A stretch of 64,000 bases of DNA from an uncultured bacterium. Its GTDB lineage: Bacteria; CSSED10-310. Each line of letters opens with the position of its first letter. Positions within the stretch are counted from its first letter, which is position 1. The notes beneath the pieces were generated by a model, which did not search any database, was not told the origin of the DNA, and worked only from the letters and a program-made list of their open reading frames with translations. Shown piece after piece: positions 6,981-44,642 of the stretch. The translations under genes were made by a program, and so were the position numbers. Where the stretch lies: the NCBI GenBank assembly GCA_964512995.1, contig CAZELM010000002.1, forward strand, positions 18,637-82,636, given 5' to 3'.

Positions 6981-7117
6981 AATCCACTTGACTCATCACC
7001 ATTCAGCAACCATTTTCCGGTGGTACGAAAGAATCAGCTTGCACATACCCACAATGATCTGCGCCCGTTCAATCCATCGGATCTCTTAATCTTTCTTTTC
7101 ATCGATGAGGTGTAACC

Positions 7118-7978: not shown

Positions 7979-8138
7979 CCGGTCGAAGAAATGCTCCCAT
8001 TTTTCCTTTCGGTAAAAAATTCTACTTCTAATCGGTAAGTTTATATCAAAAAACAGAATAAAAACAGTTATCAATAGCCGTTACCGATCGTTCTGATCTG
8101 ATCCACAGCCACCTCCGCTTATAACAACAGGTCGCACC

Positions 8139-12539: not shown

Positions 12540-12549
12540 AGGCATCCGA

Positions 12550-13704: not shown

Positions 13705-13726
13705 GAATGACAGCCGGAAGCCGGTA

Positions 13727-14251
13727 TCAGGAGGGATCTTTGAACTGGACAAGTTTTTCCAGAGTCTTGATCCGCTTCTCCAGAAATTCCTTTTCCCGTT
13801 CGATACGATCCACCCGATTCCTGAGCGCGGAATGATCGATCTGGAGACGGGTGATTTCCCGAACCAGGTTGTGCAGAAGATGGGCGAAGTAGAGATTGAT
13901 CTGAGCCTGGCGGCCGATAAGATGATCGGTATAGAGCCGGATCACCGGTCGAACGACTTTTTTGAGCGCGACGATCAGTTTGCCTTTCAACCCGGATCGG
14001 TGGGAGGAGATGATGTAACTGGAGTTGATATTCCAGGCGTGATCCGGCGACCGGAGCCGCTCCAGTAAAACAGAATCGATATCCGCTTCCTCAGCGAACT
14101 GAAGGATCTTGGCGTCCGCCAGTTCAGCGATGCTTTCTTCGGTATAAATCCCGGCTTTCTGCTTTTCCGCAATGGCCTGACGAATCCGCTCCATGATCTT
14201 TGTCACGTCCACATCTGCGCCGATTTCAAAATTCATCCATTCATCACTCAT
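13727..14251 (-). CDS. Hypothetical coiled-coil protein.
   Basis: 174-aa ORF. Its C-terminal half (LRNRVDRIEREKEFLEKRIKTLEKL) looks like a heptad coiled coil. I recognise no known domain. Confidence 0.45.
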   Translation of the reverse strand: MSDEWMNFEIGADVDVTKIMERIRQAIAEKQKAGIYTEESIAELADAKILQFAEEADIDSVLLERLRSPDHAWNINSSYIISSHRSGLKGKLIVALKKVVRPVIRLYTDHLIGRQAQINLYFAHLLHNLVREITRLQIDHSALRNRVDRIEREKEFLEKRIKTLEKLVQFKDPS

Positions 14252-14287: not shown

Positions 14288-15112
14288 TTAAAGCAATGTG
14301 GTTGAAATGTGAAGCCCGCCCGAGATTTTAATATTCTGGCCGGTGATGGCACGGGATTCGGGTGACAGCAGCCAGGAAACAGCGCCGGTGATCTCCCCCA
14401 TCTCAGCAAACCGGGACATCGGAATTTTGGGGAGCATGGCGCGAAAGTTAGGTCTGGACTCATGTTCCGGAGGTTGAACAATCCCCGGAGAAATCATATT
14501 GACGGTGATTCCATCGGAGGAGACGGATTTGGCGCAGGACCGCATGAGGCTGTAGAGTCCATGTTTGGCCGCGGCATAGGGTGCGATGGTTCGGTATCCT
14601 GAGGAACTGCCGATTCCGGAGAATCCGAACAAGATCACGCGGCCCGACCGGCAGCGCTTCATTTCCGGCAGAACATATCTCAGAAGATGGACGGCAGAGA
14701 GCAGATTCCCCGCAAACATTTCCATCCAGACATCCCCGGGCGGGATGACTTCGGGTGAATAATGGATCGGCCCGACGCAGTGAATCACGGCATCCGGAAC
14801 GCCCTGGGATTCGAGAATGGTGGCATGGAGATTCCTGACGGATTCATCCACGGTAAAATCCGCTGTGTAACAAGTTACATCGGCTTCGACGACACTGCCG
14901 AGCTGTTTCAGTGCAGTCATTCGGGGAGTGATCGATCGGTTGCAGAGTGCCAGGTTCCAGCCGGTTCCTATCAGATGATCCGCTATGGCAGCTCCGATTC
15001 CAGCCCCGGAACCACTGATCAAGGCAAGCCGGGATGGTCGGCTCTCTGGATAGTTTGTTATTTTTTTCATTTCATTTCTGATGAATCTATTGGTATTTTG
15101 TATATAGGTCAT
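14288..15112 (-). CDS. Short-chain dehydrogenase/reductase (classical SDR).
   Basis: The Rossmann motif ALISGSGAGIGAAIA and the catalytic YAAAK motif are present. The start may instead be the internal MKKITNY at about 15070. Confidence 0.8.
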   Translation of the reverse strand: MTYIQNTNRFIRNEMKKITNYPESRPSRLALISGSGAGIGAAIADHLIGTGWNLALCNRSITPRMTALKQLGSVVEADVTCYTADFTVDESVRNLHATILESQGVPDAVIHCVGPIHYSPEVIPPGDVWMEMFAGNLLSAVHLLRYVLPEMKRCRSGRVILFGFSGIGSSSGYRTIAPYAAAKHGLYSLMRSCAKSVSSDGITVNMISPGIVQPPEHESRPNFRAMLPKIPMSRFAEMGEITGAVSWLLSPESRAITGQNIKISGGLHISTTLL

Positions 15113-17724: not shown

Positions 17725-18345
17725 TCACCCAAATGAAGGCTGTATTTTGTCTGGTGATTCTCCGCTGGGATCATCCGGGCTTTTTGGATTCTCCTCGCGA
17801 ATCATTTTTTCTTTCCAGAACACCCAAAAACCGATTACGAATAAAATGAAAATACCCTGCCAAAGAAACTCGTGATAAAAATCGAAATGTTTACGCCATC
17901 GCATGCCGATAATGCCTAATGCAGCCATGCGGATGGTATTGATGGTATAGAGACCAAACCAGCCGAATAAAAGACCGTATACCTTTTCCAGAACTTTTGC
18001 CGGATAAGCCAGAACCGCTGCCGCATAGATCATCATGCCAAAAACACCGGCACAGTGATAGATAATCGTAAAACGAAATCCGCCGGGTAACAGAACAACC
18101 GCATCATTCGCCATTGCCTCGATTCCAATCATTTTCAAAACAATAATAACGGATTTGGCCATTAACATAGGCAATTTTACCGAGATATATTGCTCCGAGA
18201 CACTCCAATGCAGAAAAAAGTAAAACAAGACACAGAAATAGCCGAATAACAAATAAAACTTGAATAAGACTATGTTCTGTCTGAATAAATCGCCAATTCG
18301 ACGTAACGTCAAAATATTCCTCCTTCGATTGCCGGGATTTTCCAT
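17725..18345 (-). CDS. Exosortase/archaeosortase-family transpeptidase-like membrane protein (short form).
   Basis: A Cys lies in a TM segment (IIYHCAGVFG) and is followed 41 residues later by INTIRMAAL. This is the spacing between the catalytic Cys and the conserved Arg in ArtA, and it resembles the CSG...ANxxRI pattern of exosortases. Confidence 0.55.
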   Translation of the reverse strand: MENPGNRRRNILTLRRIGDLFRQNIVLFKFYLLFGYFCVLFYFFLHWSVSEQYISVKLPMLMAKSVIIVLKMIGIEAMANDAVVLLPGGFRFTIIYHCAGVFGMMIYAAAVLAYPAKVLEKVYGLLFGWFGLYTINTIRMAALGIIGMRWRKHFDFYHEFLWQGIFILFVIGFWVFWKEKMIREENPKSPDDPSGESPDKIQPSFG

Positions 18346-22169: not shown

Positions 22170-23951
22170 ATGCCATTTGGTAAGAGGAGGGCTGAAAAGA
22201 AAATGGCAAAAAATCCCACTATTGATCTAACGCCCATCATTACTTTAGGAAAACAGAAAGGGTATTTGACTTTTTCGGATTTAAACCAGTTTTTGCCCGA
22301 GAATATCATCTCTCCAGAAGAAATCGATATGATCTTCCATCAACTGGATTGCATGAATATTGATATTGTTGAAGATTCAAAATTGAATGACTATCGGCAG
22401 GCGAAGATTGAAGAGCGGAAGGCTGCGGAGGAAAAGGAGAGTGAAACGACTCGTCCGGAAGAGTCTGTTCCGGATTCTTCTGATGATCCTCTGCGGTTAT
22501 ATTTCAAGGAAATGGGTTCGGTATCGCTTCTCGATCGCGAAGGTGAAATCCGGATTGCTCAGAAAATCGAAGCCGGAAAGCTGGATGTGATCAACGCCGT
22601 CTCCAAAGCTCCCCTGATGATTCAGGAAATTCTGAAGATGAAGGAATCGTTGCTTCTCGGTACCACTTCGTTGGATATGTTGCTGAATGTCCCGGAAGAT
22701 GAAGAGCTTGACCGTGAAAAACTGATGTCTGAAGTTCTTGAAAAAATTGCCAGGGTAGAAGAAATTTGGCTCTCTTTCCGGAATCTAGAAAAAAAACTGG
22801 CTTCCAAAAAAATCTCTGATGCAACTCGACGCAGACTCGAATCTCAGCTCGCAGAAGAAGAAGAAAATCTGGTCGCGCAGATAACTCTATTGAACCTGAA
22901 CTACACATTTGTAGAAAAAATCTGCTCCAAAATCGAAGATTTTGTCCTTCAAATGATCAGTTACCAACGGGAAACCGACCGTCTGCTCCGTTCCGTCGGG
23001 TTGGATGAGGAAGCGTTATTTAATTTTCTGAAGCTCTATTCTGACGGAGATGACGCAAAACAAATCGACCTGGGAGCGCGGGAAATAAAAGTATCGGAGC
23101 TGAAAGAGATCTGTCATCGAATTGATCATGCCAAGGAATCCATCACCAATCTGGAAAAAGATATACAAGCTCCCATGGAAACCGTTAAGCGGATCCTGCA
23201 GGCGATCAGTTTGGGGCGAGCCAAGGAGCGAGCCGCTAAGAAACAACTAACCGAAGCCAACCTCAGGCTTGTCGTATCGATTGCCAAAAAATATACCAAC
23301 CGAGGGCTTCAATTTTCAGATCTCATTCAGGAAGGCAATGTGGGATTGATGCGTGCGGTTGATAAATTCGAATATCAGCGCGGTTACAAGTTCTCCACAT
23401 ACGCCACCTGGTGGATCCGACAGGCCATTACCCGGGCGATTGCCGATCAAGGTCGTACTATTCGTATCCCCGTTCATATGATCGAAACAATCAACAAACT
23501 CATTCGAACATCCAGACTACTCGTTCAAGAAAAAGGAACTGAACCAACGTGTGAAGAAATCGCCGATAAAATGGAAATGCCTGTCGACAAAGTCCGGCTC
23601 GTTCTGAAAATGGCGCAGGAACCGATTTCATTGGAGACGCCGATCGGTGAAGAAGAAGACAGTCAACTGGGTGATTTCATCGAAGATAAGTCCGCTGAGT
23701 CACCCTCCGATGCAGTCATCAATATGAATTTAAAGGAACAGGTACAGGCGACGCTCGCAACACTGACACCACGCGAAAAAATGGTCCTCCGGATGCGATT
23801 TGGAATCGGAGCTGGTTATGAGCATACATTGGAAGAAGTCGGAGAATACTTTGCTGTCACACGCGAACGAATCCGCCAAATCGAAGCAAAAGCACTTCGA
23901 AAACTTCGCCATCCCAGTCGCCGGGACAAACTCAAAGCATTCTACAGCTAA
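22170..23951 (+). CDS. rpoD: RNA polymerase primary sigma factor (sigma-70).
   Basis: Region 2 ([63 protein letters not shown]) and region 4 ([32 protein letters not shown]) are both recognisable. An alternative start is MAKNP at 22203. Confidence 0.95.
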
Positions 23952-24002: not shown

Positions 24003-25391
24003 ATGAAGGTTATTCTCGCCCGTCCCTGGAATCATACATCGATGCTGATCCCCAATCACGGATTGGGGTATCTCGCGGGAGCGTTGAAACGGGACGGGCA
24101 TGATCCTATGGTTATCGACTGCATCCGGGACACGCTCTCGCCACAGCAATTCCTTGAAACCATCCGGAATCACCATCCGGATGTGATTGGTTTTCAAGTT
24201 TATACGTTTGATCTGCCGATCTTACAGGAATATATCGATCGGTTACAGCATGAAAAGATTACGATTATTGCCGGAGGACCTCATCCATCCGCAGATCCCC
24301 ACTCATTTGCCCATCAGTTTCCCGAAATTGACTTTTTTTTTCGTGGAGAAGCCGATCTCGGACTTCCTCGGTTGATTCATTTATTACACAACAATACAAT
24401 TGATGAGTCTGCCCTGCGGAGTATACCCGGTCTGGTCTGGCGCTCCGGACAGTCCATTCAACTCAACCCATGCGCCTACCCAGACGATCTGGACACACTG
24501 GGCTTCCCCGACTGGGATCAGATATCACCATTGTCATACCCGGTTGCACCCCAGGGCACATTCACCAAACGGCTCCCATACGCACCCATCATAGTCACCC
24601 GGGGGTGTCCATACCCATGTTCATTCTGCGCCGGCAAACTTATGAGCGGCAGAAAGATACGATCACGAACAGCGGACCATGTCATTTCTGAACTGCGGTT
24701 TCTGGTCGATCGCTACGGAATCCGTGAATTTCATATTCAGGACGACAATTTCACATTCCATCGGGAGTTTGTGCTGGAGTTTTGCCGGAAACTGCAGGAA
24801 AGCCGTCTGGATCTGGCCTGGGCCTGTCCCAATGGCATCCGGCTCGATTCTTTGGATCCAGAGGTCTTACATGCGATGGAGTCTGCCGGGTGTTACTCGG
24901 TAGCCGTCGGCATCGAATCCGGGTCACAACGGATACTCGATCTGATGCAAAAACGTGCATCACTCGCTGATCTCTGTGCCAAGGTTCATCTGATCCGGAA
25001 GACGACGGCCTGGTATCTCACGGGATTTTTTATCCTGGGCTATCCCGGTGAAACGGAAGAGGAGATCAAATCTACCATCCGTTTATCCAAAAAACTTCCA
25101 CTGGATAAGGCCAATTTTGGCATCCTGATGCCTTTGCCCGGAACAGTGGCTGCCATCGAGGCGGAGAAATGGGGATGGACTCCCGGAGAAAATCAGACGC
25201 GAATGAGTGAATATCGAAGTCAATTCATATCACAGGGAATCTCTCCCGGGAAATTCCGGTGGCTTTTTCGGTGGGCGTTTATCAGTTTTTATGCCAGACC
25301 CCGGATCATTTACCGATTCATCTCCCAGATCAAATCCTGGGACCAGATCAAAATTCTCTGGAACCGGTTGAAAGATGTGATCCTCCCATGA
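24003..25391 (+). CDS. B12-binding-domain radical SAM protein (class B rSAM).
   Basis: The N-terminus is cobalamin-binding-like (VILARP...VIGFQVYTFDLP). The CxxxCxxC motif is RGCPYPCSFCAG. Confidence 0.85.
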   Translation: MKVILARPWNHTSMLIPNHGLGYLAGALKRDGHDPMVIDCIRDTLSPQQFLETIRNHHPDVIGFQVYTFDLPILQEYIDRLQHEKITIIAGGPHPSADPHSFAHQFPEIDFFFRGEADLGLPRLIHLLHNNTIDESALRSIPGLVWRSGQSIQLNPCAYPDDLDTLGFPDWDQISPLSYPVAPQGTFTKRLPYAPIIVTRGCPYPCSFCAGKLMSGRKIRSRTADHVISELRFLVDRYGIREFHIQDDNFTFHREFVLEFCRKLQESRLDLAWACPNGIRLDSLDPEVLHAMESAGCYSVAVGIESGSQRILDLMQKRASLADLCAKVHLIRKTTAWYLTGFFILGYPGETEEEIKSTIRLSKKLPLDKANFGILMPLPGTVAAIEAEKWGWTPGENQTRMSEYRSQFISQGISPGKFRWLFRWAFISFYARPRIIYRFISQIKSWDQIKILWNRLKDVILP

Positions 25392-26434
25392 AGCTTCTTA
25401 AAATGATCCGTCAATGGCCTTTCTCATATTTCCTTCACACACCTTACACGTGTAACATAAAGATCACACAACGATGCAACCTGAAATGTCACTTCTGCGG
25501 ATTGTGGTGCAGCGCTGCCCGTCGGGAATTGGCACTGCGGGATTACTTCCGAATGGCCGACCTACTTCGACAGTCTGGCCTGGCTCGGGTGGTGATCACA
25601 GGTGGAGAGCCGTTTCTGCGGAGTGATTTACCGGAAATCGTGAATGGATTTGCACGCCGATCCTTTTCCACAACGCTGCTCACCAATGGCACCCTTGCGA
25701 CTCGAGAATCTCTGATGAAGCTGTATGATCTGGGTCTGAACGATATTGGCATCTCCCTGGATACGCTGGATCCTCAGAAACAAGCACAGATTTGTGGAAA
25801 TGACGATGTCTGGCATCGAGCGGTCCGGACCATCCGCGAGAGTGTTGACATTTTTTCACGGGGTATTGTTGAAGTTCTGATTACGGTTTCTGCGGATAAT
25901 CTTCATGAGATACCGGAGCTCGTTTCCTTTATCGAGAACGATCTGGGAGCCTGGGCGGTTGTCAATCCGATCAACATACCCGCGGGTGAACACGCCTTTT
26001 TAAGTGCGCCGAAACACCACTCACTTCCATTGCCTGCTGAGCAGGTGGATCATATTTATAATATGCTTATCACAATGAAGCAACAAAGACACCGGCTCTT
26101 AGTTTCGGAAAAATTTCTGGAGGATTCACGGTCTTATCTGAAAACCGGGGATTATCGATGGAAATGTGATGCCGGCCAGCGTTATTTCACTGTTTTTTCC
26201 GATGGTGCGCTGGCTCCCTGCAGCGATACTCCAGCAATCGCCAATATCATGGACATGACTCCCGGTGATTTTCGCCAGCACTCATTCATCACCAAAACAC
26301 AGGACATCAGAGCTTCATGCGGCGGATGCATTTTCTCCTGCTGGCGGGAAGCCAGCTATCTCTTCACTGAACCAACCGTCTGGAAAGAACGGATTCTGAC
26401 ATCTCTCCATCTCGTAGCATCGAAAAGGAAGTAA
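25388..26434 (+). CDS. Radical SAM protein with a C-terminal SPASM/twitch-like Cys cluster.
   Basis: CNLKCHFCGLW is the CxxxCxxC motif, and the C-terminus has CSDTP...CGGCIFSCW. I prefer the start at the ATG at 25388, which overlaps the upstream stop (ATGA); the track ORF begins at 25259. Confidence 0.75.
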   Translation: MKLLKMIRQWPFSYFLHTPYTCNIKITQRCNLKCHFCGLWCSAARRELALRDYFRMADLLRQSGLARVVITGGEPFLRSDLPEIVNGFARRSFSTTLLTNGTLATRESLMKLYDLGLNDIGISLDTLDPQKQAQICGNDDVWHRAVRTIRESVDIFSRGIVEVLITVSADNLHEIPELVSFIENDLGAWAVVNPINIPAGEHAFLSAPKHHSLPLPAEQVDHIYNMLITMKQQRHRLLVSEKFLEDSRSYLKTGDYRWKCDAGQRYFTVFSDGALAPCSDTPAIANIMDMTPGDFRQHSFITKTQDIRASCGGCIFSCWREASYLFTEPTVWKERILTSLHLVASKRK

Positions 26435-26438
26435 GCTC

Positions 26439-27965
26439 ATGGATCGATTGGATCAGTATCGTGTGCTGCTCATGCGACCACCTTTTACCCGATTGAAGGG
26501 AGTTGGACAAGCACCTTATTTTCCGTTGGGTATCGGATATATCGCCGCCGTGTTAAACCAGTTGCCAGGTGTCACAGCAGAACTGTATTACTCCGAAAAT
26601 CCCCTGCCCGGTGAACCGACGTTTATTGTTGATAAAAAAGGCGTCTTTCACTCCAGATCAACCGCTCAATCCCAGTATTTCCAGGCATTGGAAATGGATT
26701 CTCACCCGGTATGGACGGAGATCCGGAATGTGCTCAGACAATTCAGACCGGATATTCTGGGTTTGAGTGTGCTGACTCCCGAAGCAGGTTCAGCGTTCAA
26801 AGTAACTCAGATTGCCAAGGAGTTATTTCCTGCGTGTCATGTTGTCTGGGGTGGTGTACATCCCACCTATTCGGTGAAAGAGACACTGGAACTCCCCGGT
26901 GTCGATTATGTTGTGGTGGGTGAAGGGGAATACTCGATGCGGGAGCTGGTTCTGGCGCTGCAGTCAGGCGGCTATCGAGGTTCCATTCCCGGTGTCATCA
27001 GCCGGAGGGAATCTGCCGAGGGATATCAGCAGCGGGAGTTGATTCCAGATCTTGATCGATTGCCTTTTCCCGATCGGAAACATGTTATCTTCCCGGATCG
27101 GTTCTCTCCTGTTGCAATGGGCAGTCTGATGCATAGCAGGGGTTGTCCATGGCAATGCGGATTCTGCTCCTCCCGGCACTTCTGGAATGAACGAGTTCGA
27201 TTCCGATCTCCAGAACAGATTACCGCTGAAATCGCGCAACTCATCCGGGACTACCGCATCAAAACATTCACATTCTGGGATGATGCGTTCACAATAGACC
27301 GTGCTTTGACGCAAACATTATGTGAATCGATCATTGCGATGAAAACACGAATCGCCTGGCGAACAGCCACTCGCATGGATTTACTGGATGATCCGATGCT
27401 GCGTCTGATGAAACGAGCTGGGTGTGTTCAATTGGAGTTGGGAATAGAGAGTGGCAGTTCCCGTATGTTACAACTTATCAAAAAAGATATTGAATTGAGT
27501 CAGGTGCGGGAAATCATTGAGCGTGTCAGTGCACATGGGATGGCATGTGGTGTATTTTTTATGGCCGGATTTCCCGACGAGACGATGGCTGACCTTGAAG
27601 CGACGTATCAGTTTATGCAGACGATCCAGCCGGCCGAGATTGTCTTGAACATTTTCGATCCGATGCCAGGTTCGGAGCAATTTCATCGTGCCATCAATTT
27701 GGGTCTGCTGCCACTAGAAATTGATTACCTTCGATTTCCACTTTGGCCGGATGCTCATTATATTAAAGGAATGAAACCGGTGGAGTTCAATGTGATGGTG
27801 GACAAAATTTCACGGTATGTTTTTCAATATAATTCCAGCCGCATCGCTTTTATGAGGCGAGCCAGACCGGAAGCATTACAGCTTTTGAGATCCGATCCCA
27901 AGGTTCTGCTTCAAAAAGCATTGCGCGTCCTCAAACACCGATTCCGGAATGGTGGATCACACTAA
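26439..27965 (+). CDS. B12-binding-domain radical SAM protein (class B rSAM); second copy.
   Basis: The N-terminal B12-binding-like domain is followed by RGCPWQCGFCSS. The overall architecture is similar to 24003..25391. Confidence 0.85.
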   Translation: MDRLDQYRVLLMRPPFTRLKGVGQAPYFPLGIGYIAAVLNQLPGVTAELYYSENPLPGEPTFIVDKKGVFHSRSTAQSQYFQALEMDSHPVWTEIRNVLRQFRPDILGLSVLTPEAGSAFKVTQIAKELFPACHVVWGGVHPTYSVKETLELPGVDYVVVGEGEYSMRELVLALQSGGYRGSIPGVISRRESAEGYQQRELIPDLDRLPFPDRKHVIFPDRFSPVAMGSLMHSRGCPWQCGFCSSRHFWNERVRFRSPEQITAEIAQLIRDYRIKTFTFWDDAFTIDRALTQTLCESIIAMKTRIAWRTATRMDLLDDPMLRLMKRAGCVQLELGIESGSSRMLQLIKKDIELSQVREIIERVSAHGMACGVFFMAGFPDETMADLEATYQFMQTIQPAEIVLNIFDPMPGSEQFHRAINLGLLPLEIDYLRFPLWPDAHYIKGMKPVEFNVMVDKISRYVFQYNSSRIAFMRRARPEALQLLRSDPKVLLQKALRVLKHRFRNGGSH

Positions 27966-28927
27966 TGACCTGGTTCGCAGATATTTTCAGGTGGATATTC
28001 TATTTTCCGTTTCGATCCCTGGTCACACGCTTACCCCGCCCCATATTTCGCCGTATCGGCTATCTTTTAGGAGATATCTCTTATTTCTTACGAAGAACTC
28101 GTGCCCGTATCGCAAAGGAAGAGCTCCGGAGCACCTTCGCCGGTTATATGGACAACACGGAGATTCCTCATGCCGTGCGAACTGGAATGCGCCTCTCCAT
28201 TGCAAATCTGTTGGAAACATTTTGCTTTCCTAAAATCAATGCATCGAACATCAAGCGATGGATCAGGCTGGACGGGTGTCAGTATCTGGAGGATGCTTTG
28301 GAAAATCAGCGGGGTGTTATCATAGTGATCGCACACTTTGGAGCGAACCAGATGATTATTCCCGCATTGGGATTCCGAAGATTCCAGATTCATCAACTTG
28401 GCAGCCGACCCGAAGATTGGAATCGGCTGTCAGGCATCCAGCCTTCTCCAGTCCAAAAAAAAATGTTTCAGGTGCGCCTAGAGATGGAAAAACATCTTCC
28501 AGCTCAATTTATTTATATCGACCGATCGATGCGACCGGTCTATGACTGTCTGAAAAAAAATGGCATTTTGATCATGGCTGCGGATGGAAGAGCGGGTAAC
28601 CGGTTTTTGAAAACCCGATTTGCAAGCCGTTATATTCAACTCTCTTCCGGTCCTTTTCGCATTGCTAAGGCAACTGGAGCTGTTTTGCTGCCGGCCTTCC
28701 CGGTTTGTGACTATGATGGTGTTCATACACTGCATATTCAAAACCCAATCCTAGTGCCGGAGTCAGCCGATGATTCGCAATGGGCGGTAAAGGCGGCAGA
28801 GCTTTTTGCAATAAGATTAGCCATTCAAGTTCTTACTCACCCGGATCATTATAGTTCGTTGCTTGCTGAAGCACGAATTCGGGCGGATACTGATCCGATA
28901 CCTTTAATAAGTGATGATCCATCATGA
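27965..28927 (+). CDS. Membrane-associated acyltransferase, LpxL/HtrB-like (LPLAT superfamily).
   Basis: There is an N-terminal hydrophobic segment, and an HFGANQ motif sits in the position of the HxxxxD/E acyltransferase motif. It overlaps the upstream stop as TAATG and the downstream start as ATGA. The assignment is tentative. Confidence 0.4.
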   Translation: MTWFADIFRWIFYFPFRSLVTRLPRPIFRRIGYLLGDISYFLRRTRARIAKEELRSTFAGYMDNTEIPHAVRTGMRLSIANLLETFCFPKINASNIKRWIRLDGCQYLEDALENQRGVIIVIAHFGANQMIIPALGFRRFQIHQLGSRPEDWNRLSGIQPSPVQKKMFQVRLEMEKHLPAQFIYIDRSMRPVYDCLKKNGILIMAADGRAGNRFLKTRFASRYIQLSSGPFRIAKATGAVLLPAFPVCDYDGVHTLHIQNPILVPESADDSQWAVKAAELFAIRLAIQVLTHPDHYSSLLAEARIRADTDPIPLISDDPS

Positions 28928-29937
28928 CGGGTAAACCAATCCCATCCCCAACGATTTCCATCGTCATCCCATGCCGGAACTCACACCACACACTCAAACA
29001 GGTATTGGATGTTCTGTCACAATTGAGCCCAAACGCATTCGAGATCCTGTTGATCGATGATGGATCAGAGGTATCATTGGAAGACATCGCACGGGAGTAT
29101 GGCATTCGCTTTCATCGAATCTTTCCGGGACAGGGACCTGCACAGGCTCGAAATGTCGGCGGAGAATTATCACAGGGAGATATTATTCTCTTTTTGGATT
29201 CGGATGTAATACCGCCCGTAGATATTATTGCTCAATTACAATATCGATTTATCATGATTGCAGGGCTTGTAGCTGTTCAGGGTATCTATAATGAAAAAAC
29301 TCCTGCGACAGGTCTGTTCTCGAAATACCAGAATTATTATTATCATCTGGCTTTTTTTTCGAATAGCAGCGACTTTCCAGCAATCTGTGCAACATACTGT
29401 TTTGCGATTCGGAGAACGGTTTTTCTTGAAATGGGAGGCTTTGATACTCGAATCCCCAATCCCACGGTAGAGGATGAAATCATGGGTTATCGACTGATGA
29501 CTTTTCATCATCCGATCTTTCTGGACCGGCAGTTACAGGTCACTCATCTTGCCCAATACCGGATCGGAAGTTTCTTTCGTCGAAAGATGAGGATGAGCAT
29601 TGCTCAGATAAAAAGTCTGATGCGAGGGAATTATCCACCGATCCGCGATCATCAAAAAAATGAGAATCATAATCAGACGCATCATTCCGAACAAATGATT
29701 TTCAGCACAGGTCTCGCGCCACTTCTGCCGATTCTATGGATCATCTATTGGCCATCCGGCCTTCTGATTACTTTGATCTATTGTTATCTGAACGTAACAT
29801 TCTGGCGGTATTTATTGCATCGGGAACCAATCTGGCGATTGGTATCTCTGATTGCGATTACGTGGCTGGATCAGATAGCGATTTTCATGGGAATCTGCAT
29901 AGGAGCTTTGGATTTTTGGATGGGGCGGCGATATTAG
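28924..29937 (+). CDS. Glycosyltransferase family 2 with C-terminal TM helices.
   Basis: ISIVIPCRN, LLIDDGS and LDSDV are GT2 DxD-type motifs. The C-terminus is hydrophobic (LPILWIIYWPSGLLITLIYCYL). Confidence 0.8.
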   Translation: MTGKPIPSPTISIVIPCRNSHHTLKQVLDVLSQLSPNAFEILLIDDGSEVSLEDIAREYGIRFHRIFPGQGPAQARNVGGELSQGDIILFLDSDVIPPVDIIAQLQYRFIMIAGLVAVQGIYNEKTPATGLFSKYQNYYYHLAFFSNSSDFPAICATYCFAIRRTVFLEMGGFDTRIPNPTVEDEIMGYRLMTFHHPIFLDRQLQVTHLAQYRIGSFFRRKMRMSIAQIKSLMRGNYPPIRDHQKNENHNQTHHSEQMIFSTGLAPLLPILWIIYWPSGLLITLIYCYLNVTFWRYLLHREPIWRLVSLIAITWLDQIAIFMGICIGALDFWMGRRY

Positions 29938-30152
29938 TTCCTGATCTTCAGATTGCTTGCCTGACATATACAGAAAAACAGGATCAAGAAAAATATGATT
30001 TGATGAGTGACGGATACGGCCGAGAAACACCTTGACAAAGATTTTTATGGGGACTAAGTTTTAACCGCTGGTGCTTATTAGTATGGAATTTGATAATTGA
30101 ATCCGATCATTCCATATTATTATGATTTCAAAATCACAAGGAGACTCTCGAA

Positions 30153-30428
30153 GTGACCAAAGAAGACATTGTCAACCGAATTTGGGAAAACCTGGACCTA
30201 AGTAAAAAAGATGCGGCCGAAGTCGTGGAACGCCTTCTTCTTTGTTTCAAAGATGTTCTTAAAAAAGAAGATAGACTAAAAATAGGGGGTTTTGGTGTCT
30301 TTGAAGTGCGGCGTCGGAAAGCACGATTGGGCCGAAATCCAAAAACAGGCGAGAAAGCCGAGATCAAAGAAGGCTATACCATCAAATTCAAACCTGGGAA
30401 AACACTCAAGCAAGCCATTTCAAAATAA
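30153..30428 (+). CDS. hup: DNA-binding protein HU (HU/IHF family).
   Basis: GTG start. Contains GGFGVFEVRRRKARLGRNPKTGEKAEIKEGYTIKFKPGKTLKQAI, the HU arm signature. Confidence 0.9.
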   Translation: MTKEDIVNRIWENLDLSKKDAAEVVERLLLCFKDVLKKEDRLKIGGFGVFEVRRRKARLGRNPKTGEKAEIKEGYTIKFKPGKTLKQAISK

Positions 30429-35258: not shown

Positions 35259-36299
35259 TCAGATGAACCGTTCTTTATCTCTATCCCACCATAATGTAAA
35301 CATAAGACGGTAAATCCGGCTTTCCTCATACCAATCCGCAGCCGGATCGATACGATATCGTTGGCTGACGCAAGCGAGCGCCCAACGACACATAGCCATC
35401 AGGCTGATAAGTTGACAGACAATAAAGGTTTTCCATGCAGGATGGTGTTTTCGAAAAAAATAGACCATGCTTCGATATCGTTCAAAAAATGGCCGAAGGG
35501 GTGCTTTACGGGACGCCGAAGCGACTTCATGCCGGGATATCACCTGATCCAGATACACCCATTTCCAACCTGCTTTTCGTGCTCTCAATGCAAAATCGAT
35601 CTCTTCATAGTAGAGGAAGAAACCATCATCCATCCCTCCAATCTGGTCAAATGCACATCGTTTGATCATGACGCATGCGCCAGTTGTATAATCGACATAC
35701 TGGACGGGAGATGGTTCAGCATACTGCTGAAAAAAGCGTCCCAATATTCGCAGATGACCCTGGATAACGACTTCATCCGCTGGCAACAGTCGTTTTAAGC
35801 AGAAAAGATGAGCAATAATGAGATGCAGGTCAGGAAAAGTACCTCGGGATGGTTGGAGCCTTCCATCCGGATATATCAGACGAGGTGCTGCTGCAACAGC
35901 ATCATGTTGTGTCTCCAGAAAAAACTTCAGTGCACTTATCCCATCCAGCGTAATCCGTGCATCCGGGTTTAGAAGCAGTATCAATGGAGCTGTTGTGGCA
36001 CTAACTCCCTGATTGACCGCGAAAGCAAAACCTTTATTTTCTGGATTCGCGATGAGTCGTATCCGGTTTTCAAACGAACGAGCCACATTCAGCGTTGAAT
36101 CTTCCGAATGATTATCAACAACAATAATTTCCAGATTCACCCATGGATTAGTATTAAGCAGTTGCGACACGCACTCCTGAAGTTCAAACTCAGCATTATA
36201 TGTTACCAGGATTACCGCGATATCCGCTTGTTGAGATCTTGAGTCTATCATCATTGCCTCTTCGTAGTAACACAATTCCTTTCCAAATCTTCTTTCCAA
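35259..36299 (-). CDS. Glycosyltransferase family 2 (polyprenyl-phosphate sugar synthase-like or rhamnosyltransferase-like).
   Basis: VILVTYNAEF, VVDNHSED and NPENKGFAFAVNQG are classic GT2-A motifs. It lies directly downstream of the GT-C gene on the same strand. Confidence 0.8.
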   Translation of the reverse strand: MERRFGKELCYYEEAMMIDSRSQQADIAVILVTYNAEFELQECVSQLLNTNPWVNLEIIVVDNHSEDSTLNVARSFENRIRLIANPENKGFAFAVNQGVSATTAPLILLLNPDARITLDGISALKFFLETQHDAVAAAPRLIYPDGRLQPSRGTFPDLHLIIAHLFCLKRLLPADEVVIQGHLRILGRFFQQYAEPSPVQYVDYTTGACVMIKRCAFDQIGGMDDGFFLYYEEIDFALRARKAGWKWVYLDQVISRHEVASASRKAPLRPFFERYRSMVYFFRKHHPAWKTFIVCQLISLMAMCRWALACVSQRYRIDPAADWYEESRIYRLMFTLWWDRDKERFI

Positions 36300-36336
36300 T
36301 GCATGATCACACCAATAAGAGATGGTAAGGTGTCAC

Positions 36337-38070
36337 TCATCTGGCATCAATTTCATCCAGTTCTTTCACCTGCCACAGAATCACAGGAGAATTTTTTATC
36401 TGGAATGTCGTTATATATGTCGCGTTTTCCATCACTTCCGGAAACCATTGTTTCTGGAGAACCAGTTCATTGCCCAATGGGTACTCCCATGAAAGGATAT
36501 GTGTTATATTGTGTTTCTCGAATGGATTCTCATCATTGACAAAGCCTTTCCAGAGCGGAATCGCCCGATGGGTGGTCTCCAAGCACAATTCCGGAGCCCA
36601 TTGGCCGGCGATAACGGATCCCGAAGGCAGCAGTGTATTGAGTTCCCGGGAAGCCTGAACGATGTGATATGTCCGATGGAACTGCCAATTCAGCAATCTC
36701 CCGACATCCATTCCCACACAGATGATAGTGATAATGATCCATATGCGATAGGATATCCTGCCCGGCAGAATGGACACAGCCGCCAGAAAAATACCGATGA
36801 CGATCACCATGATCGCTCCATCTGTTGAAAATCCTGGCAAGGATGCATATCCCAGCCATTTTCCTCCAGTAAAAAGTTGATCTAACAGCGGAATTGCATT
36901 GGCAATGACTGGAATCATCATCCAACTGCTCGAAATGAAATTCCTGCCTGATGATCCAACCTTCATCGGAAACTTTTTATCGAAGGAACGACTGCCTCGG
37001 AGAAGATCTGTCATACCGATCCAGCGCCATGATCCGATCAAGATGAGGGGGATGATCAATGGAATATAGTATCTCACTGGCCGATAGGTCAGAGGCGACA
37101 GGAATAAAAAACCGGATACAAACCATACATAACTGAACAGAACGATTCCTGGGATTTCCTTTGATCTTCGGGCAAACGATCGCATGAATGGAATTTCGAT
37201 CAGCAACAGCCATCCGGTGCAGAGTATTAACGGCATCCGATTGAAATAGATAAAAAAAGGCTGAAGTATGACGTTCTTGATCATCGAGATCAGTGAATGC
37301 TCATGTTGTGAAAGATAAAACTGCTGATATCGGATCAAAATTTCTCGTTCCGGCAGGTAGATCACAACAAACCATGGGATAATGACCGACAGGAATCCCA
37401 AAACCTGTGTGATGTTCTTTTTATGTGAAAATGAGTTGAAACCATCAAGCCAGTAACTTGCTGCGAGCAGCGTGAACAATAGGTAAATCTGTGTTCCCTT
37501 GGTGATATAAGTCAAGGCGGCAAAAAAACCCGCAGCGCCATACCAGAAATACACCCTCGCAGAAGCAGCACGACACCAGCAGTAAGCAGTGACAATACTC
37601 CCGACTACAGCGGCTGTTTCCAATAAAGCAATCCGTTGATAGGCAACGAATACAGGACATACTGCACTGAATAAGAAGGCCAGCCATCCCCATTGATAGA
37701 CTCTTACCAACAAAATAAAAATTATTACTGTGGCGAAAGAGAAACTCAATGCAGAAATGCGGACAGCAAGTAATCCCGGCTTTATGGCCTTAAATAAAAA
37801 GATGGTCCACGGATGGATCAAGGGAGAGACAAACCGATCGTGCCAGTCATCGGTGCCATAGTCCCCCCATATGACCCAATTACGGGCATCATGCACCCAA
37901 AATCCTTCGTCTGCATAATAGCCACCGCTCCAAGATAGATCCGGAGGTGGGTCGGAGAGTGGATTGATCGATCGGAAAAAAATGGCCAATAAAAAAGATA
38001 TTATCCAGATCCATTTGATAATCTGCGTATTCATCCGGCCATTACTTCTCCCTGCTTCAAACCAATACAA
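36337..38070 (-). CDS. GT-C fold membrane glycosyltransferase, ArnT/PMT (GT39/GT83-like) family.
   Basis: More than 10 TM segments. Contains GGYYADEGFW (DE motif), RISALSFSFATVII and YQRIALLETAAV, which match the PMT_2/ArnT family. Confidence 0.7.
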   Translation of the reverse strand: MYWFEAGRSNGRMNTQIIKWIWIISFLLAIFFRSINPLSDPPPDLSWSGGYYADEGFWVHDARNWVIWGDYGTDDWHDRFVSPLIHPWTIFLFKAIKPGLLAVRISALSFSFATVIIFILLVRVYQWGWLAFLFSAVCPVFVAYQRIALLETAAVVGSIVTAYCWCRAASARVYFWYGAAGFFAALTYITKGTQIYLLFTLLAASYWLDGFNSFSHKKNITQVLGFLSVIIPWFVVIYLPEREILIRYQQFYLSQHEHSLISMIKNVILQPFFIYFNRMPLILCTGWLLLIEIPFMRSFARRSKEIPGIVLFSYVWFVSGFLFLSPLTYRPVRYYIPLIIPLILIGSWRWIGMTDLLRGSRSFDKKFPMKVGSSGRNFISSSWMMIPVIANAIPLLDQLFTGGKWLGYASLPGFSTDGAIMVIVIGIFLAAVSILPGRISYRIWIIITIICVGMDVGRLLNWQFHRTYHIVQASRELNTLLPSGSVIAGQWAPELCLETTHRAIPLWKGFVNDENPFEKHNITHILSWEYPLGNELVLQKQWFPEVMENATYITTFQIKNSPVILWQVKELDEIDAR

Positions 38071-44436: not shown

Positions 44437-44642
44437 AAAAAATATATTCTCACGTTTTCAGGAACCAGATGACTGGCTTCCAACTGTGGATTTCCCTTGG
44501 AAAGATCCTATAAGATCAACATACTGAAATTGTTTCGGTTCCAATATATTCTGCTCTACAGTATCATTCACTATCCGATAATCCAGTTTACAAAACCATT
44601 CCAGAGATAAAATTTCAACCTGTAACAGATAAAAATTGGGGA

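What the first reader, a model, noticed from the sequence alone, without database searches (positions are those of the whole stretch)
24003..29937. Five-gene radical-SAM cluster (2x B12-rSAM, SPASM/twitch rSAM, acyltransferase, membrane GT2) directly downstream of rpoD
The genes are tightly coupled by ATGA and TAATG overlaps. Two cobalamin-dependent rSAMs (methylating or rearranging on unactivated carbon), a twitch/SPASM rSAM, an LPLAT-like acyltransferase and a membrane GT2 are more consistent with tailoring of a lipid, glycolipid or sugar than with a RiPP. I found no precursor-peptide ORF. The product could be an unusual methylated or cyclised envelope lipid or glycan.
Basis: partly seen in the sequence, partly recalled or inferred. 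Interest (0 to 1): 0.65.

Follow-up and report, generated by a model that had tools for sequence, protein, structure and literature searches.

The report
Radical-SAM operon for envelope glycolipid tailoring
Five tightly packed genes right after the main sigma-factor gene of an uncultured anaerobe (CSSED10-310-like lineage) encode three radical-SAM enzymes, a lipid-A-type acyltransferase and a membrane glycosyltransferase. They most likely build and decorate an unknown cell-envelope glycolipid or lipid-linked glycan. The acyltransferase plus B12-radical-SAM pair recurs, sometimes fused into one protein, in surface-polysaccharide loci of several other phyla.

Summary
Five same-strand genes lie at 24003-29937: B12-rSAM, twitch-like rSAM, B12-rSAM, PF03279 acyltransferase and GT2 with C-terminal TM helices. 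They are joined by ATGA/TAATG overlaps, start 51 nt after rpoD, and have no terminator or small conserved ORF between them.

No gene reaches any curated NCBIfam cut-off (HpnJ/R, BchE, ladderane-type rSAM, LpxL, PatA, ArnC).

The whole block, rpoD-[g1-g5]-hupB-gcvTHP, is syntenic in at least four related genomes at 39-62% amino-acid identity. The closest named relatives are candidate division CSSED10-310.

Across phyla only g4 (acyltransferase) and g3 (B12-rSAM) are conserved. They are adjacent in either order, or fused. Relatives of g4 are also fused to a Wzx flippase or to a flavoprotein. These loci carry Wzx, Wzy_C, Wzc/Wza, GT9, PMT_2, PF01663/sulfatase and acyl-AMP ligase genes, and no RiPP components.

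Best reading: a cytoplasmic-face pathway that glycosylates, O-acylates and radically tailors (probably C-methylates) a membrane-anchored saccharolipid or lipid-linked glycan. The substrate and the chemistry are inferred, not shown. I found no paper linking this acyltransferase family to rSAM enzymes. I rate it a new variant of known kinds, of moderate interest.

The parts
22170..23951 (+). rpoD (primary sigma-70), the upstream neighbour. It probably shares its transcript with the cluster.
   Evidence: NF004208 RpoD 670 bits against a cut-off of 555. The gap to g1 is 51 nt with no terminator-like site. The same adjacency occurs in L085 and L086/L087. Co-transcription is inferred.
24003..25391 (+). 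g1: class-B (cobalamin-binding) radical SAM enzyme, 462 aa
   Evidence: PF02310 61.6 bits plus PF04055 79.5 bits. Cys202/206/209. Best NCBIfam hits: Sden_1168 P-methyltransferase 167 bits (cut-off 575), ApyD 151, HpnJ 132, BchE 131, all far below cut-off. Best PDB matches by sequence: AprD4 and QCMT. Orthologues at 61-62% in L085/L086 and 35-37% in L097/L124.
25388..26434 (+). g2: radical SAM enzyme with a twitch-like C-terminal auxiliary-cluster domain, 348 aa
   Evidence: PF04055 79.8 bits. Invariant C30/C34/C37 plus C260, C278, C311 and C314 in 21 family members. AF2 model pLDDT 92. Foldseek best matches SkfB, SuiB, BlsE, PqqE, viperin, DesII and MoaA, TM about 0.6-0.66. No RRE. The family is small and mostly CSSED10-310.
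26439..27965 (+). g3: class-B radical SAM enzyme, 508 aa. It is the cross-phylum partner of g4.
   Evidence: PF02310 61.1 bits plus PF04055 81.6 bits. Cys236/240/243. Orthologues at 42-44% in Nitrospirota, Magnetococcales and Desulfobacterota-type contigs. Adjacent to g4 orthologues in 14 of 40 unique metagenome loci. Fused in frame to g4 in P0093, P0095, P0058, P0086 and P0099. A further rSAM-g4 fusion, P0350, is known only from the g4-profile search. Best NCBIfam hit BchE 190 bits against a cut-off of 481.
27965..28927 (+). g4: PF03279 (LpxL/LpxM/PatA-family) acyltransferase, 320 aa
   Evidence: PF03279 60.5 bits. All NCBIfam LpxL/PatA models score 47 bits or less against cut-offs of 209-517. 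PDB profile hits PatA (5f2t) and LpxM (5kn7) at about 49 bits. Invariant H124-F-G, E175 and D207-G208; Gln129 sits where HX4D/E has the acid. The clade has about 270 representatives at E<=1e-30 among 1.84 billion.
28924..29937 (+). g5: family-2 glycosyltransferase with a C-terminal membrane anchor, 337 aa
   Evidence: PF00535 70 bits. Hydrophobic segments at 258-288 and 306-329. Best NCBIfam hit MftF 80 bits against a cut-off of 280; ArnC 16 bits against 529. Orthologues at 36-45% directly after g4 in L085, L086, L093 and L094.
30153..30428 (+). hupB (HU), the downstream boundary with its own promoter-like site
   Evidence: PF00216 106.9 bits. TTGACA-like boxes at 30090-30126. The spacer is not conserved as an ORF.
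35259..38070 (-). GT2 plus PMT_2 (GT-C) gene pair, syntenic with the cluster. A possible downstream user of a lipid-linked sugar (inference only).
   Evidence: PF00535 81.7 bits and PF13231 32.7 bits. The same pair follows the gcv genes in L086/L087/L094. A g2 homologue in L139 sits directly upstream of a PMT_2 gene.

Best explanation
g1-g5 form one operon, probably read through from rpoD. It encodes a cytoplasmic-face pathway for a membrane-anchored envelope glycoconjugate: a saccharolipid, or a lipid-linked glycan that is later flipped outward.

Proposed order, inferred from what the families are known to do:
1. g5, a GT2 held in the membrane by C-terminal helices, transfers a sugar from a nucleotide sugar to a lipid acceptor.
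2. g4, an LpxL/PatA-family acyltransferase, O-acylates that glycolipid from acyl-ACP or acyl-CoA. It would use His124 with a block-III acid (Asp207), because the usual HX4D/E acid is replaced by Gln.
3. g3, the cobalamin-dependent rSAM that is fused to g4 in other lineages, acts on the same substrate at an unactivated carbon. C-methylation of the acyl chain or the sugar is the simplest guess.
4. g1 (a second B12-rSAM) and g2 (a twitch-type rSAM) add further radical steps.

Shown here: gene structure, domain identities, conserved catalytic residues, synteny, the g3-g4 adjacency and fusions, and the polysaccharide/LPS-type context in other phyla. Inferred: the acceptor, the acyl donor, the reaction types, the order of steps and co-transcription with rpoD.
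For: Operon anatomy.

Domains.

Synteny: rpoD-[g1-g5]-hupB-gcvTHP is conserved at 39-62% amino-acid identity in L085, L086/L087 and L094. This argues for a vertically inherited, core function.

g3-g4 coupling:
- Orthologues are adjacent in Nitrospirota (L001, L088) and Desulfobacterota-like (L091) contigs.
- 14 of 40 unique metagenome loci found with the g4 motif carry a g3 orthologue 2-109 nt away.
- 11 of 14 loci with flanks on both sides have a B12-rSAM within 1.2 kb.
- In-frame g3-g4 fusions exist.

Envelope and glycan context:
- g4-clade fusions to a Wzx flippase (P0340), to an amine-oxidase-type flavoprotein (P0365), and in tandem.
- Neighbours include Wzx, Wzy_C, Wzc, Wza, GT9, PMT_2, PF01663/sulfatase, AMP-binding ligase, sulfotransferases and sugar-nucleotide enzymes.
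- Among 110 neighbour proteins: 28 rSAM, 27 B12-binding, 18 PF03279, 7 PF01663, 4 Wzx, 3 Wzy_C, 3 AMP-binding, 2 GT9.

The organism is diderm: an OMP beta-barrel gene is in the window.

g4 keeps the catalytic His and an invariant Asp-Gly block and matches PatA and LpxM structures by sequence profile.
Against: - No enzyme reaches a curated family threshold, so every substrate assignment is by analogy.
- The window's own operon has no flippase, polymerase or sugar-nucleotide gene.
- g1, g2 and g5 are not part of the cross-phylum core, so contexts from other phyla may not transfer to them.
- g3's closest solved relative by sequence, AprD4, is a diol dehydratase acting on a soluble aminoglycoside intermediate (its function from the NCBIfam family name and my own knowledge).
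- g2's nearest folds include RiPP maturases.
- B12-rSAMs also do ring contractions, cyclisations and thioether formation (PMC12931638, PMC13331322), so methylation is only the prior.
- In the Magnetococcales contig the g3 orthologue has no adjacent g4.
Confidence: 0.6

Rival explanations
1. A specific sub-case: g4 is the lineage's late (secondary) lipid A acyltransferase. The B12-rSAMs remodel lipid A or the LPS inner core, for example by methyl-branching or cross-linking secondary acyl chains. This would be an anaerobic counterpart to O2-dependent lipid A modifications.
For: - g4 belongs to PF03279, whose characterised members are mostly LpxL, LpxM and LpxP.
- Related loci contain GT9 (the heptosyltransferase family), Wzy_C/WaaL-like and sulfatase/EptA-like genes, and 2-3 PF03279 paralogues, as in waa regions.
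- The Magnetococcales g3 orthologue lies about 6 kb from lpxD-fabZ-lpxA-bamA.
- The organism is diderm.
- The housekeeping position after rpoD fits an essential envelope function.
Against: - g4 scores 47 bits or less against every LpxL/LpxM/LpxP model (cut-offs 248-540). It scores the same against PatA, which acylates a mannose of PIM.
- The HX4D/E acid is Gln.
- No lpx or waaA gene lies in the window.
- Wzx, Wzc, Wza and glycoside-hydrolase neighbours fit an exopolysaccharide equally well.
Confidence: 0.22
2. An isoprenoid-lipid tailoring module, analogous to hopanoid HpnI/HpnK/HpnJ or HpnP/HpnR, or to modification of a polyprenyl-phosphate sugar. The GT2 glycosylates an isoprenoid lipid and the rSAMs methylate or rearrange it.
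For: - HpnJ, HpnR and HpnB appear among the weak NCBIfam hits for g1, g3 and g5.
- g5 has the GT2 plus C-terminal TM architecture of polyprenyl-phosphate glycosyltransferases.
- A GT2 + PMT_2 pair and a UbiA prenyltransferase lie nearby.
- g2 homologues sit next to PMT_2 genes.
Against: - HpnJ 114-132 bits against a cut-off of 578, HpnR 59-91 against 650, HpnB 24 against 379, ArnC 16 against 529.
- No squalene-hopene cyclase or hpn gene was seen in the window or in any related locus.
- This reading does not explain the conserved acyltransferase partner.
Confidence: 0.08
3. A biosynthetic cluster for a soluble secondary metabolite: an aminoglycoside-, nucleoside- or sugar-derived compound made with AprD4/GenK/BtrN/BlsE-type rSAMs.
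For: - AprD4 is the best solved-structure match by sequence for g1 and g3.
- BlsE and DesII are among the closest folds to g2.
Against: - The housekeeping position and phylum-wide synteny.
- A membrane-anchored GT2 and a lipid-A-family acyltransferase.
- Fusion of the acyltransferase clade to a Wzx flippase.
- No aminotransferase, cyclase, resistance or export genes in the operon.
- AprD4 model 108-114 bits against a cut-off of 500.
Confidence: 0.06
4. A RiPP maturation cluster, with B12-rSAM C-methyltransferases plus a SPASM/twitch cross-linking enzyme acting on a peptide encoded elsewhere.
For: - ApyD and 'RiPP maturation rSAM C-methyltransferase' appear among the weak hits for g1 and g3.
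- SkfB and SuiB are the top folds for g2.
Against: - No precursor ORF in or beside the operon, here or in relatives.
- No RRE on g2.
- No protease or peptide exporter.
- ApyD 151-168 bits against a cut-off of 750.
- The partners are an acyltransferase and a GT2, and contexts elsewhere are glycan loci.
Confidence: 0.03

Closest known systems
LpxL/LpxM late lipid A acyltransferases and PatA (PIM acyltransferase), all PF03279
   Same: g4 has the same Pfam family. It matches the LpxM (5kn7) and PatA (5f2t) sequences at about 49 bits and keeps the catalytic His in an HxG context and an Asp-Gly block. The expected role is O-acylation of a membrane glycolipid at the cytoplasmic face.
   Different: Scores are far below every curated LpxL/LpxM/LpxP/PatA cut-off. 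Gln replaces the acid of HX4D/E. g4 belongs to a separate clade of about 270 representatives. Members of that clade are paired or fused with B12-rSAMs, Wzx flippases or flavoproteins. I know of no such pairing for LpxL or PatA, and found none in the papers searched.
Lipid-modifying class-B radical SAM enzymes (HpnP, HpnR, HpnJ, GrsA/B, Gmm; review PMC13459092)
   Same: g1 and g3 have an N-terminal cobalamin-binding Rossmann domain plus the rSAM core. They would act on unactivated carbons of membrane-bound substrates.
   Different: Neither is a member of those families: HpnR 59-91 bits against a cut-off of 650, HpnJ 114-132 against 578. No isoprenoid-lipid genes are nearby. The review lists no rSAM partnered with an acyltransferase.
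Hopanoid side-chain module HpnI (GT2) - HpnK - HpnJ (rSAM)
   Same: The logic is the same: a GT2 puts a sugar on a lipid and a B12-type rSAM then rearranges it.
   Different: There is no deacetylase and no hopanoid genes, an acyltransferase is present instead, and sequence scores are below the cut-offs.
Twitch/SPASM radical SAM enzymes (BtrN, BlsE, SkfB, SuiB, MoaA)
   Same: g2 has a partial TIM-barrel rSAM core plus a C-terminal Cys-ligated auxiliary cluster domain, with four invariant Cys (CX17C...CX2C).
   Different: No RRE or peptide-binding domain. PF13186 was not detected in the window protein. It is a narrow, unnamed family, and its best NCBIfam hit, MoaA, scores 94 bits against a cut-off of 325.
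Proposed ladderane lipid cluster (B12-rSAM TIGR04072 + phytoene-desaturase-like flavoprotein + ACP/FabF; PMC13459092 section 5)
   Same: The wider g3/g4 loci also combine several B12-rSAMs with an amine-oxidase/PDH-like flavoprotein. One 425-aa paralogue scores 239 bits against TIGR04072.
   Different: That score is below the cut-off of 360. There are no ACP or FabF genes. The window's own operon lacks the flavoprotein and that paralogue. The context is glycan export, not fatty-acid synthesis.
ArnC/ArnT-type lipid-linked sugar pathway (GT2 with C-terminal TM helices plus a GT-C transferase)
   Same: g5 has the same architecture, and a syntenic GT2 + PMT_2 pair lies 5 kb downstream.
   Different: ArnC model 16 bits against a cut-off of 529. 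No formyltransferase, deformylase or aminotransferase genes are present.

Membership tests
Class B (cobalamin-binding) radical SAM enzymes | N-terminal B12-binding Rossmann domain (PF02310) followed by a radical SAM core with CX3CX2C | tested here: met
   g1: PF02310 61.6 bits, PF04055 79.5 bits, Cys202/206/209. g3: 61.1 and 81.6 bits, Cys236/240/243. Profile hits to OxsB, TokK, QCMT and TsrM structures. Cobalamin binding itself was not tested.
Hopanoid rSAMs HpnP/HpnR/HpnJ | Score above the NCBIfam equivalog cut-off, and co-location with hopanoid (shc/hpn) genes | tested here: not met
   HpnJ 132/114 bits against 577.6. HpnR 59/91 bits against 650. HpnP is not among the listed hits for either protein (g1: best 25 of 29 shown; g3: best 25 of 30). 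No shc or hpn genes in the window or in related loci.
BchE anaerobic Mg-protoporphyrin cyclase | Score above the TIGR02026 cut-off, and a bacteriochlorophyll gene context | tested here: not met
   131 bits (g1) and 190.6 bits (g3) against a cut-off of 481. No bch genes nearby.
SPASM/twitch radical SAM enzymes | rSAM core plus a C-terminal Cys-rich domain binding one (twitch) or two (SPASM, 7-Cys motif) auxiliary [4Fe-4S] clusters | tested here: inconclusive
   Four invariant C-terminal Cys (260, 278, 311, 314) fit one auxiliary cluster, i.e. twitch-like. The nearest folds are SkfB, SuiB and BlsE. PF13186 is not detected at E<=0.01 in the window protein, and the full 7-Cys SPASM motif is absent. 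Cluster content can only be settled experimentally.
LpxL/LpxM/LpxP Kdo2-lipid IVA late acyltransferases | PF03279 fold | tested here: met
   60.5 bits against a cut-off of 22.3. Profile hit to LpxM 5kn7 over residues 20-317.
LpxL/LpxM/LpxP Kdo2-lipid IVA late acyltransferases | Score above a curated LpxL-type model, and an intact HX4(D/E) catalytic motif | tested here: not met
   The best LpxL-type model scores 47.5 bits against cut-offs of 248-540. The motif is H124-F-G-A-N-Q129: the His is invariant, and Gln (or Leu) sits at the acid position across the clade.
LpxL/LpxM/LpxP Kdo2-lipid IVA late acyltransferases | Acts on Kdo2-lipid IVA, and the genome has lpxA-D/waaA | not testable with these tools
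   Only 64 kb of the genome is available and it holds no lpx genes. Whole-genome content of the CSSED10-310 MAGs could not be queried.
PatA (phosphatidylinositol mannoside acyltransferase) | Score above NF005919, and a PIM pathway context | tested here: not met
   47.4 bits against a cut-off of 209. No PIM genes. The similarity is confined to the shared fold.
RiPP biosynthetic cluster | Precursor peptide gene with leader/core; an RRE or other peptide-recognition domain; a protease or exporter | tested here: not met
   No intergenic ORF of 20 aa or more. The spacer is not conserved in frame. No small gene is called in the syntenic loci. g2's rSAM motif starts at residue 30, leaving no room for an RRE. 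A precursor encoded elsewhere in the genome cannot be excluded.
Polyprenyl-phosphate glycosyltransferases (ArnC/GtrB/DPMS type GT2) | GT-A domain followed by C-terminal TM helices, and a score above family models | tested here: inconclusive
   The architecture is met. ArnC scores 16 bits against 529 and DPMS (5mlz) gives E 0.0066 only. The acceptor is unknown.
Ladderane-type 'lipid biosynthesis B12-binding/radical SAM protein' (TIGR04072) | Score above 360 bits, and a neighbourhood with amxACP/FabF | tested here: not met
   g1 92 bits and g3 119 bits. A paralogue in related loci reaches 239 bits. No ACP or FabF genes in the operon.

The most novel reading that the evidence does not exclude
The PF03279 acyltransferase plus B12-radical-SAM pair (g4+g3) is the signature of an undescribed, widespread route in anaerobic diderm bacteria (CSSED10-310, Nitrospirota, Nitrospinota, Desulfobacterota, Magnetococcales). 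An LPS- or lipid-A-like saccharolipid, or a lipid-linked surface glycan, would be acylated and then modified by cobalamin-dependent radical chemistry on unactivated carbons before being flipped by a Wzx-type transporter. That would be a new class of envelope lipid or glycan structures, and the first radical-SAM step in LPS/EPS assembly.
Probability: 0.3. Interest if true: 0.75.

Novelty: new variant of a known kind. Interest (0 to 1): 0.55.

Why it matters
All the enzyme superfamilies here are known. The combination is not: a lipid-A-type acyltransferase coupled to, and sometimes fused with, a cobalamin radical-SAM enzyme inside surface-glycan loci. No curated family covers it, and I found no paper describing it.

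If the model holds, many uncultured anaerobes carry envelope lipids or glycans with radical-installed modifications such as methyl branches or C-C links. That bears on three things: outer-membrane biology without oxygen, the interpretation of branched-lipid biomarkers in sediments, and the catalogue of B12-rSAM reactions.

The compact five-gene version in this window is a convenient minimal set for heterologous reconstitution. Its position behind rpoD, conserved within the lineage, suggests it is a core function rather than an accessory one.

Tried and rejected
1. The exact look-up of g3 from the window found nothing. The identical protein P0001 was later found, so the first result was an index quirk.

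It returned only paralogues at 34% identity or less. It added no orthologue contexts and no named cultured hosts.

3. The homology search with g4 returned only 17 close relatives. I went further with a profile search of representatives and a motif scan of metagenomes.

4. Sub-classifying the rSAMs by NCBIfam and by solved structures gave only sub-threshold, mutually inconsistent best hits: BchE, ApyD, Sden_1168 P-methyltransferase, HpnJ, AprD4, MoaA. None can be used to name a reaction.

5. The AF2 model of g2 and its Foldseek search confirmed a twitch/SPASM-type fold. The fold does not separate peptide-modifying from sugar-modifying enzymes.

6. RiPP reading: rejected for lack of a precursor, RRE, protease or exporter.

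7. Hopanoid, BchE and ladderane membership: rejected on scores and context.

8. Phosphonate idea: g1's top hit is a P-methyltransferase family, and PF01663 genes are common in related loci. I did not pursue it, because no PEP-mutase-like gene was seen in any locus.

9. The link to the neighbouring glycine-cleavage genes: conserved synteny only, with no functional evidence.

10. Literature searches for CSSED10-310 lipids, LpxL with radical SAM, and B12-rSAM with polysaccharide or LPS found nothing relevant.

Full report
**1. What is in the sequence**

Region 24003-29937 holds five consecutive + strand ORFs.

| Gene | Coordinates | Length | Domains |
|---|---|---|---|
| g1 | 24003-25391 | 462 aa | B12-binding + Radical_SAM |
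| g2 | 25388-26434 | 348 aa | Radical_SAM |
| g3 | 26439-27965 | 508 aa | B12-binding + Radical_SAM |
| g4 | 27965-28927 | 320 aa | Lip_A_acyltrans (PF03279) |
| g5 | 28924-29937 | 337 aa | Glycos_transf_2 |

- The ORF finder started g2 at a GTG at 25259. The ATG at 25388 gives a protein that aligns from residue 1 with homologues of 345-354 aa.
- The gene upstream is rpoD (670 bits against NF004208). It ends 51 nt before g1.
- No terminator-like site lies in that gap or at any junction.
- After g5 comes a 215-nt spacer with promoter-like boxes, then hupB and gcvT-H-P.
- All Pfam scores are well above the gathering cut-offs.
- The CX3CX2C triads are present in all three rSAMs, and g5 has two to three C-terminal hydrophobic helices.

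**2. Sub-classification of the enzymes**

None of the five proteins reaches the curated cut-off of any NCBIfam model.

- g1: best hits are a P-methyltransferase family (167 bits, cut-off 575), ApyD (151 bits, cut-off 750), HpnJ (132 bits, cut-off 578) and BchE (131 bits, cut-off 481).
- g3: BchE (191 bits, cut-off 481), ApyD (168 bits), the ladderane-type lipid rSAM TIGR04072 (119 bits, cut-off 360) and HpnR (91 bits, cut-off 650).
- By sequence, the nearest solved structures for g1 and g3 are AprD4, QCMT (9CCB, identified in PMC12931638), OxsB and TokK. They are canonical class-B rSAMs, and that says nothing about the reaction.
- g2: 21 family members share the rSAM triad and four further invariant Cys, at 260, 278, 311 and 314. 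This fits one auxiliary cluster. From memory, the CX17C...CX2C spacing resembles BtrN; I treat that as a lead only.
- A confident AF2 model of g2 (pLDDT 92) is closest to SkfB, SuiB, BlsE, PqqE, viperin, DesII and MoaA at TM about 0.6-0.66. The fold is twitch/SPASM-type but does not indicate the substrate.
- g2 has no N-terminal RRE.
- g4: a profile of g4 and seven homologues from related loci matches PatA and LpxM equally, at about 49 bits. In NCBIfam, g4 itself scores 47 bits or less against all LpxL and PatA models.
- The g4 clade keeps His124-Phe-Gly, Glu175 and Asp207-Gly208. Gln, or Leu in one fusion, sits at the acid position of HX4D/E.
- I infer a His/Asp207 pair analogous to the block-III acid of other LPLAT-fold enzymes. 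The geometry was not tested.
- g5 is a generic GT2. Its best hit is MftF at 80 bits (cut-off 280).

**3. Where it comes from and how conserved it is**

- The identical g3 protein is on a 176-kb NCBI contig (P0001).
- The closest named relatives (57-62% identity) are annotated candidate division CSSED10-310. This is an uncultured phylum known from anoxic, sulfidic sediments (PMC8248873).
- The window also encodes an OMP beta-barrel protein, so the organism is diderm.
- The block rpoD-g1-g2-g3-g4-g5-hupB-gcvT-H-P recurs in L085 (a 4.3-Mb contig), L086/L087 and L094. A GT2 (with a PMT_2 gene beside it in L086/L087 and L094) follows on the opposite strand. L094 is cut at its upstream end and starts inside g3.
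- Protein identities across these loci are 61-62% (g1), 51-59% (g2), 56-62% (g3), 40-48% (g4) and 36-41% (g5).
- I read this as an inherited, core feature of the lineage rather than a mobile accessory cluster.
- GC content (0.45-0.50) is not an outlier in the window.

**4. The conserved core is g4 + g3**

- Outside this lineage, g3 has orthologues at 42-44% identity in several groups. These include Nitrospirota (among them Ca. Magnetominusculus xianensis), Nitrospinota, Magnetococcales and a Deltaproteobacteria RBG-type lineage.
- In the Nitrospirota and delta-type contigs the g3 orthologue is immediately next to a g4 orthologue of 31-35% identity, in the order g4-g3.
- A motif scan of metagenomes with the g4 signature ([AVM]HFGA[NH][QL]...) gave 45 loci, 40 of them unique.
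  - 14 loci have a g3 orthologue 2-109 nt from g4.
  - Of the 14 loci with at least 1.5 kb on both sides, 11 have a B12-rSAM within 1.2 kb.
- In-frame fusions of B12-rSAM and acyltransferase (about 840 aa) occur in at least five protein clusters. One is from a CSSED10-310 genome (P0093 = L003 10001-12523).
- A profile search of 1.84 billion representatives found about 270 members of this acyltransferase clade at E<=1e-30. Longer members include:
  - P0350, a further rSAM-acyltransferase fusion;
  - P0340, a Wzx flippase fused to the acyltransferase;
  - P0365, the acyltransferase fused to an amine-oxidase/phytoene-desaturase-like flavoprotein;
  - tandem acyltransferase pairs.
- g1 has clear orthologues (35-37%) in only two of the longer loci, L097 and L124.
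- The g2 family is small and mostly confined to CSSED10-310.
- g5 recurs only within the lineage, plus two weak GT2 matches elsewhere.

**5. Context in other phyla**

- The related loci are surface-glycan loci. Their neighbours include:
  - the polysaccharide assembly and export genes Wzx (Polysacc_synt), Wzy_C (polymerase/ligase), Wzc and Wza;
  - the glycosyltransferases GT9 (the heptosyltransferase family), PMT_2 (GT-C) and GT4, together with glycoside hydrolases;
  - PF01663 and sulfatase-type phosphotransferase-like proteins and sulfotransferases;
  - class-I methyltransferases;
  - AMP-binding acyl-activating enzymes directly upstream of the acyltransferase;
  - sugar-nucleotide enzymes.
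- I counted families in 110 predicted proteins within -5 to +6.5 kb of the acyltransferase in 13 unique loci:

| Family | Proteins matching |
|---|---|
| Radical_SAM | 28 |
| B12-binding | 27 |
| PF03279 acyltransferase | 18 |
| PF01663 | 7 |
| Sulfatase | 4 |
| Wzx (Polysacc_synt) | 4 |
| Wzy_C | 3 |
| AMP-binding | 3 |
| GT9 | 2 |
| Amine oxidase | 2 |

- No precursor peptides, RRE proteins, peptidases or peptide exporters were seen.
- One g3 orthologue, in Magnetococcales, lacks an adjacent g4. It lies about 6 kb from lpxD-fabZ-lpxA-bamA.
- g2 homologues outside the lineage sit next to a PMT_2 GT-C and a methyltransferase (L139), or next to a methyltransferase and a SPASM rSAM (L138).

**6. 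Most likely mechanism**

PF03279 enzymes studied so far O-acylate membrane glycolipids at the cytoplasmic leaflet: Kdo2-lipid IVA for LpxL and LpxM, and PIM for PatA. GT2 enzymes with C-terminal TM helices typically load a sugar onto a lipid carrier. These are established family properties, not something tested here.

Fusion of the acyltransferase to a Wzx flippase implies that the acylated molecule is the flippase's lipid-linked substrate. Fusion to the B12-rSAM implies that both enzymes work on the same molecule.

I therefore propose this order:
1. g5 glycosylates a membrane lipid.
2. g4 acylates the product, with the donor probably acyl-ACP or acyl-CoA.
3. g3 and g1 carry out cobalamin-dependent radical reactions on unactivated carbons of the acyl chain or the sugar. 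C-methylation is the commonest such reaction.
4. g2 adds a further radical step.

Co-transcription with rpoD would make expression constitutive (inferred and the conserved short gap).

My confidence that this is envelope glycoconjugate or lipid tailoring is about 0.6-0.75. My confidence in any specific chemistry is low, at most about 0.3.

**7. Rivals**

- **Lipid A/LPS remodelling.** This is a specific sub-case, supported by GT9/Wzy_C/EptA-like neighbours and multiple PF03279 paralogues. It is weakened by the poor LpxL scores, the altered motif and the absence of lpx genes in the window. About 0.2.
- **Isoprenoid or hopanoid-type tailoring.** About 0.08. Scores are far below the cut-offs and no hpn or shc genes were seen.
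- **Soluble secondary metabolite.** About 0.06.
- **RiPP.** About 0.03.

**8. Comparison with what is known, and novelty**

- A 2026 review of lipid-modifying rSAMs (PMC13459092) covers Tes, Mss, Gms, GrsA/B, Gmm, Cds, HpnH/J/P/R, Jaw5 and the ladderane candidates. It mentions no acyltransferase-coupled rSAM.
- A 2026 review of B12-rSAM structures (PMC12931638) mentions no polysaccharide, LPS or glycolipid substrate.
- Searches for LpxL with radical SAM, and for B12-rSAM with EPS or LPS, found nothing relevant.
- The superfamilies are known. The module and its product are not. I rate it a new variant of known kinds.
- Interest is 0.55. It is a well-supported lead with clear experiments, but one of many uncharacterised rSAM clusters, and its chemistry is still unknown.

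Noticed in passing
window 1021-5271 (-): A 1416-aa ORF with no Pfam hit. It has a signal peptide and about 500 aa of Pro-Thr (TPT) repeats, seen as tandem DNA repeats at 3230-4548. Its C-terminal tail, 'IPASSPSG + hydrophobic helix + TRR', resembles an exosortase-type sorting signal. It is probably a heavily glycosylated surface protein.
   Followed up: partly
window 17725-18345 (-): A short Exosortase_EpsH-like membrane protein (PF09721, 28.8 bits). The same gene is syntenic in L086. It may process the PT-repeat protein above.
   Followed up: no
window 8139-13752 (-): A run of four GT4/GT1-family glycosyltransferase genes with two unannotated ORFs (7034-8074, 10255-11370) and an SDR at 14288-15112. 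This is a second envelope-glycan locus in the window.
   Followed up: no
window 35259-38070 (-): A GT2 + PMT_2 (GT-C) pair. It is conserved in position relative to the rSAM cluster in L086/L087/L094. A g2 homologue in L139 is directly upstream of a PMT_2 gene, which hints at a functional link.
   Followed up: partly
window 57395-62358 (-): Two adjacent PPDK_N (PEP-utilising, ATP-grasp) proteins. The 1074-aa one carries a C-terminal nucleotidyltransferase (NTP_transf_2/Polbeta) domain, an unusual architecture.
   Followed up: no
window 44639-45006 (-): Bacterial RNase P RNA class A, 326 bits. It is the only Rfam hit in the window.
   Followed up: no
P0340, P0365, P0267/P0341/P0396 (proteins): The g4-type acyltransferase also occurs fused to a Wzx flippase, fused to an amine-oxidase/phytoene-desaturase-like flavoprotein, and as tandem duplicates.
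   Followed up: partly
L091 / L097 / L107 / L109 / L117 / L124: These are larger versions of the locus in other phyla. They carry 4-5 B12-rSAM paralogues (about 505, 530, 500 and 425 aa, plus a g1-like one), 2-3 PF03279 paralogues, a flavoprotein, class-I methyltransferases, an alpha/beta hydrolase and GT9. The 425-aa paralogue scores 239 bits against the ladderane-type TIGR04072 and 300 bits against BzaD, both below cut-off.
   Followed up: partly
L140 / L141 (P0112): A g3-like rSAM labelled 'Candidatus Hodarchaeales archaeon' by NCBI sits on contigs of 10 kb or less with GT9, Wzy_C and three sulfotransferases. These are bacterial-type LPS/glycan genes, so the archaeal label may reflect mis-binning.
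   Followed up: no
L111 4125-6813 and L118 5880-8502: In loci where the g4-like acyltransferase has no rSAM partner, L111 shows an AMP-binding acyl-activating enzyme directly upstream and a sulfatase/EptA-like protein downstream. L118 has the same gene sizes and order but was not annotated. This suggests a dedicated acyl-donor supply.
   Followed up: no
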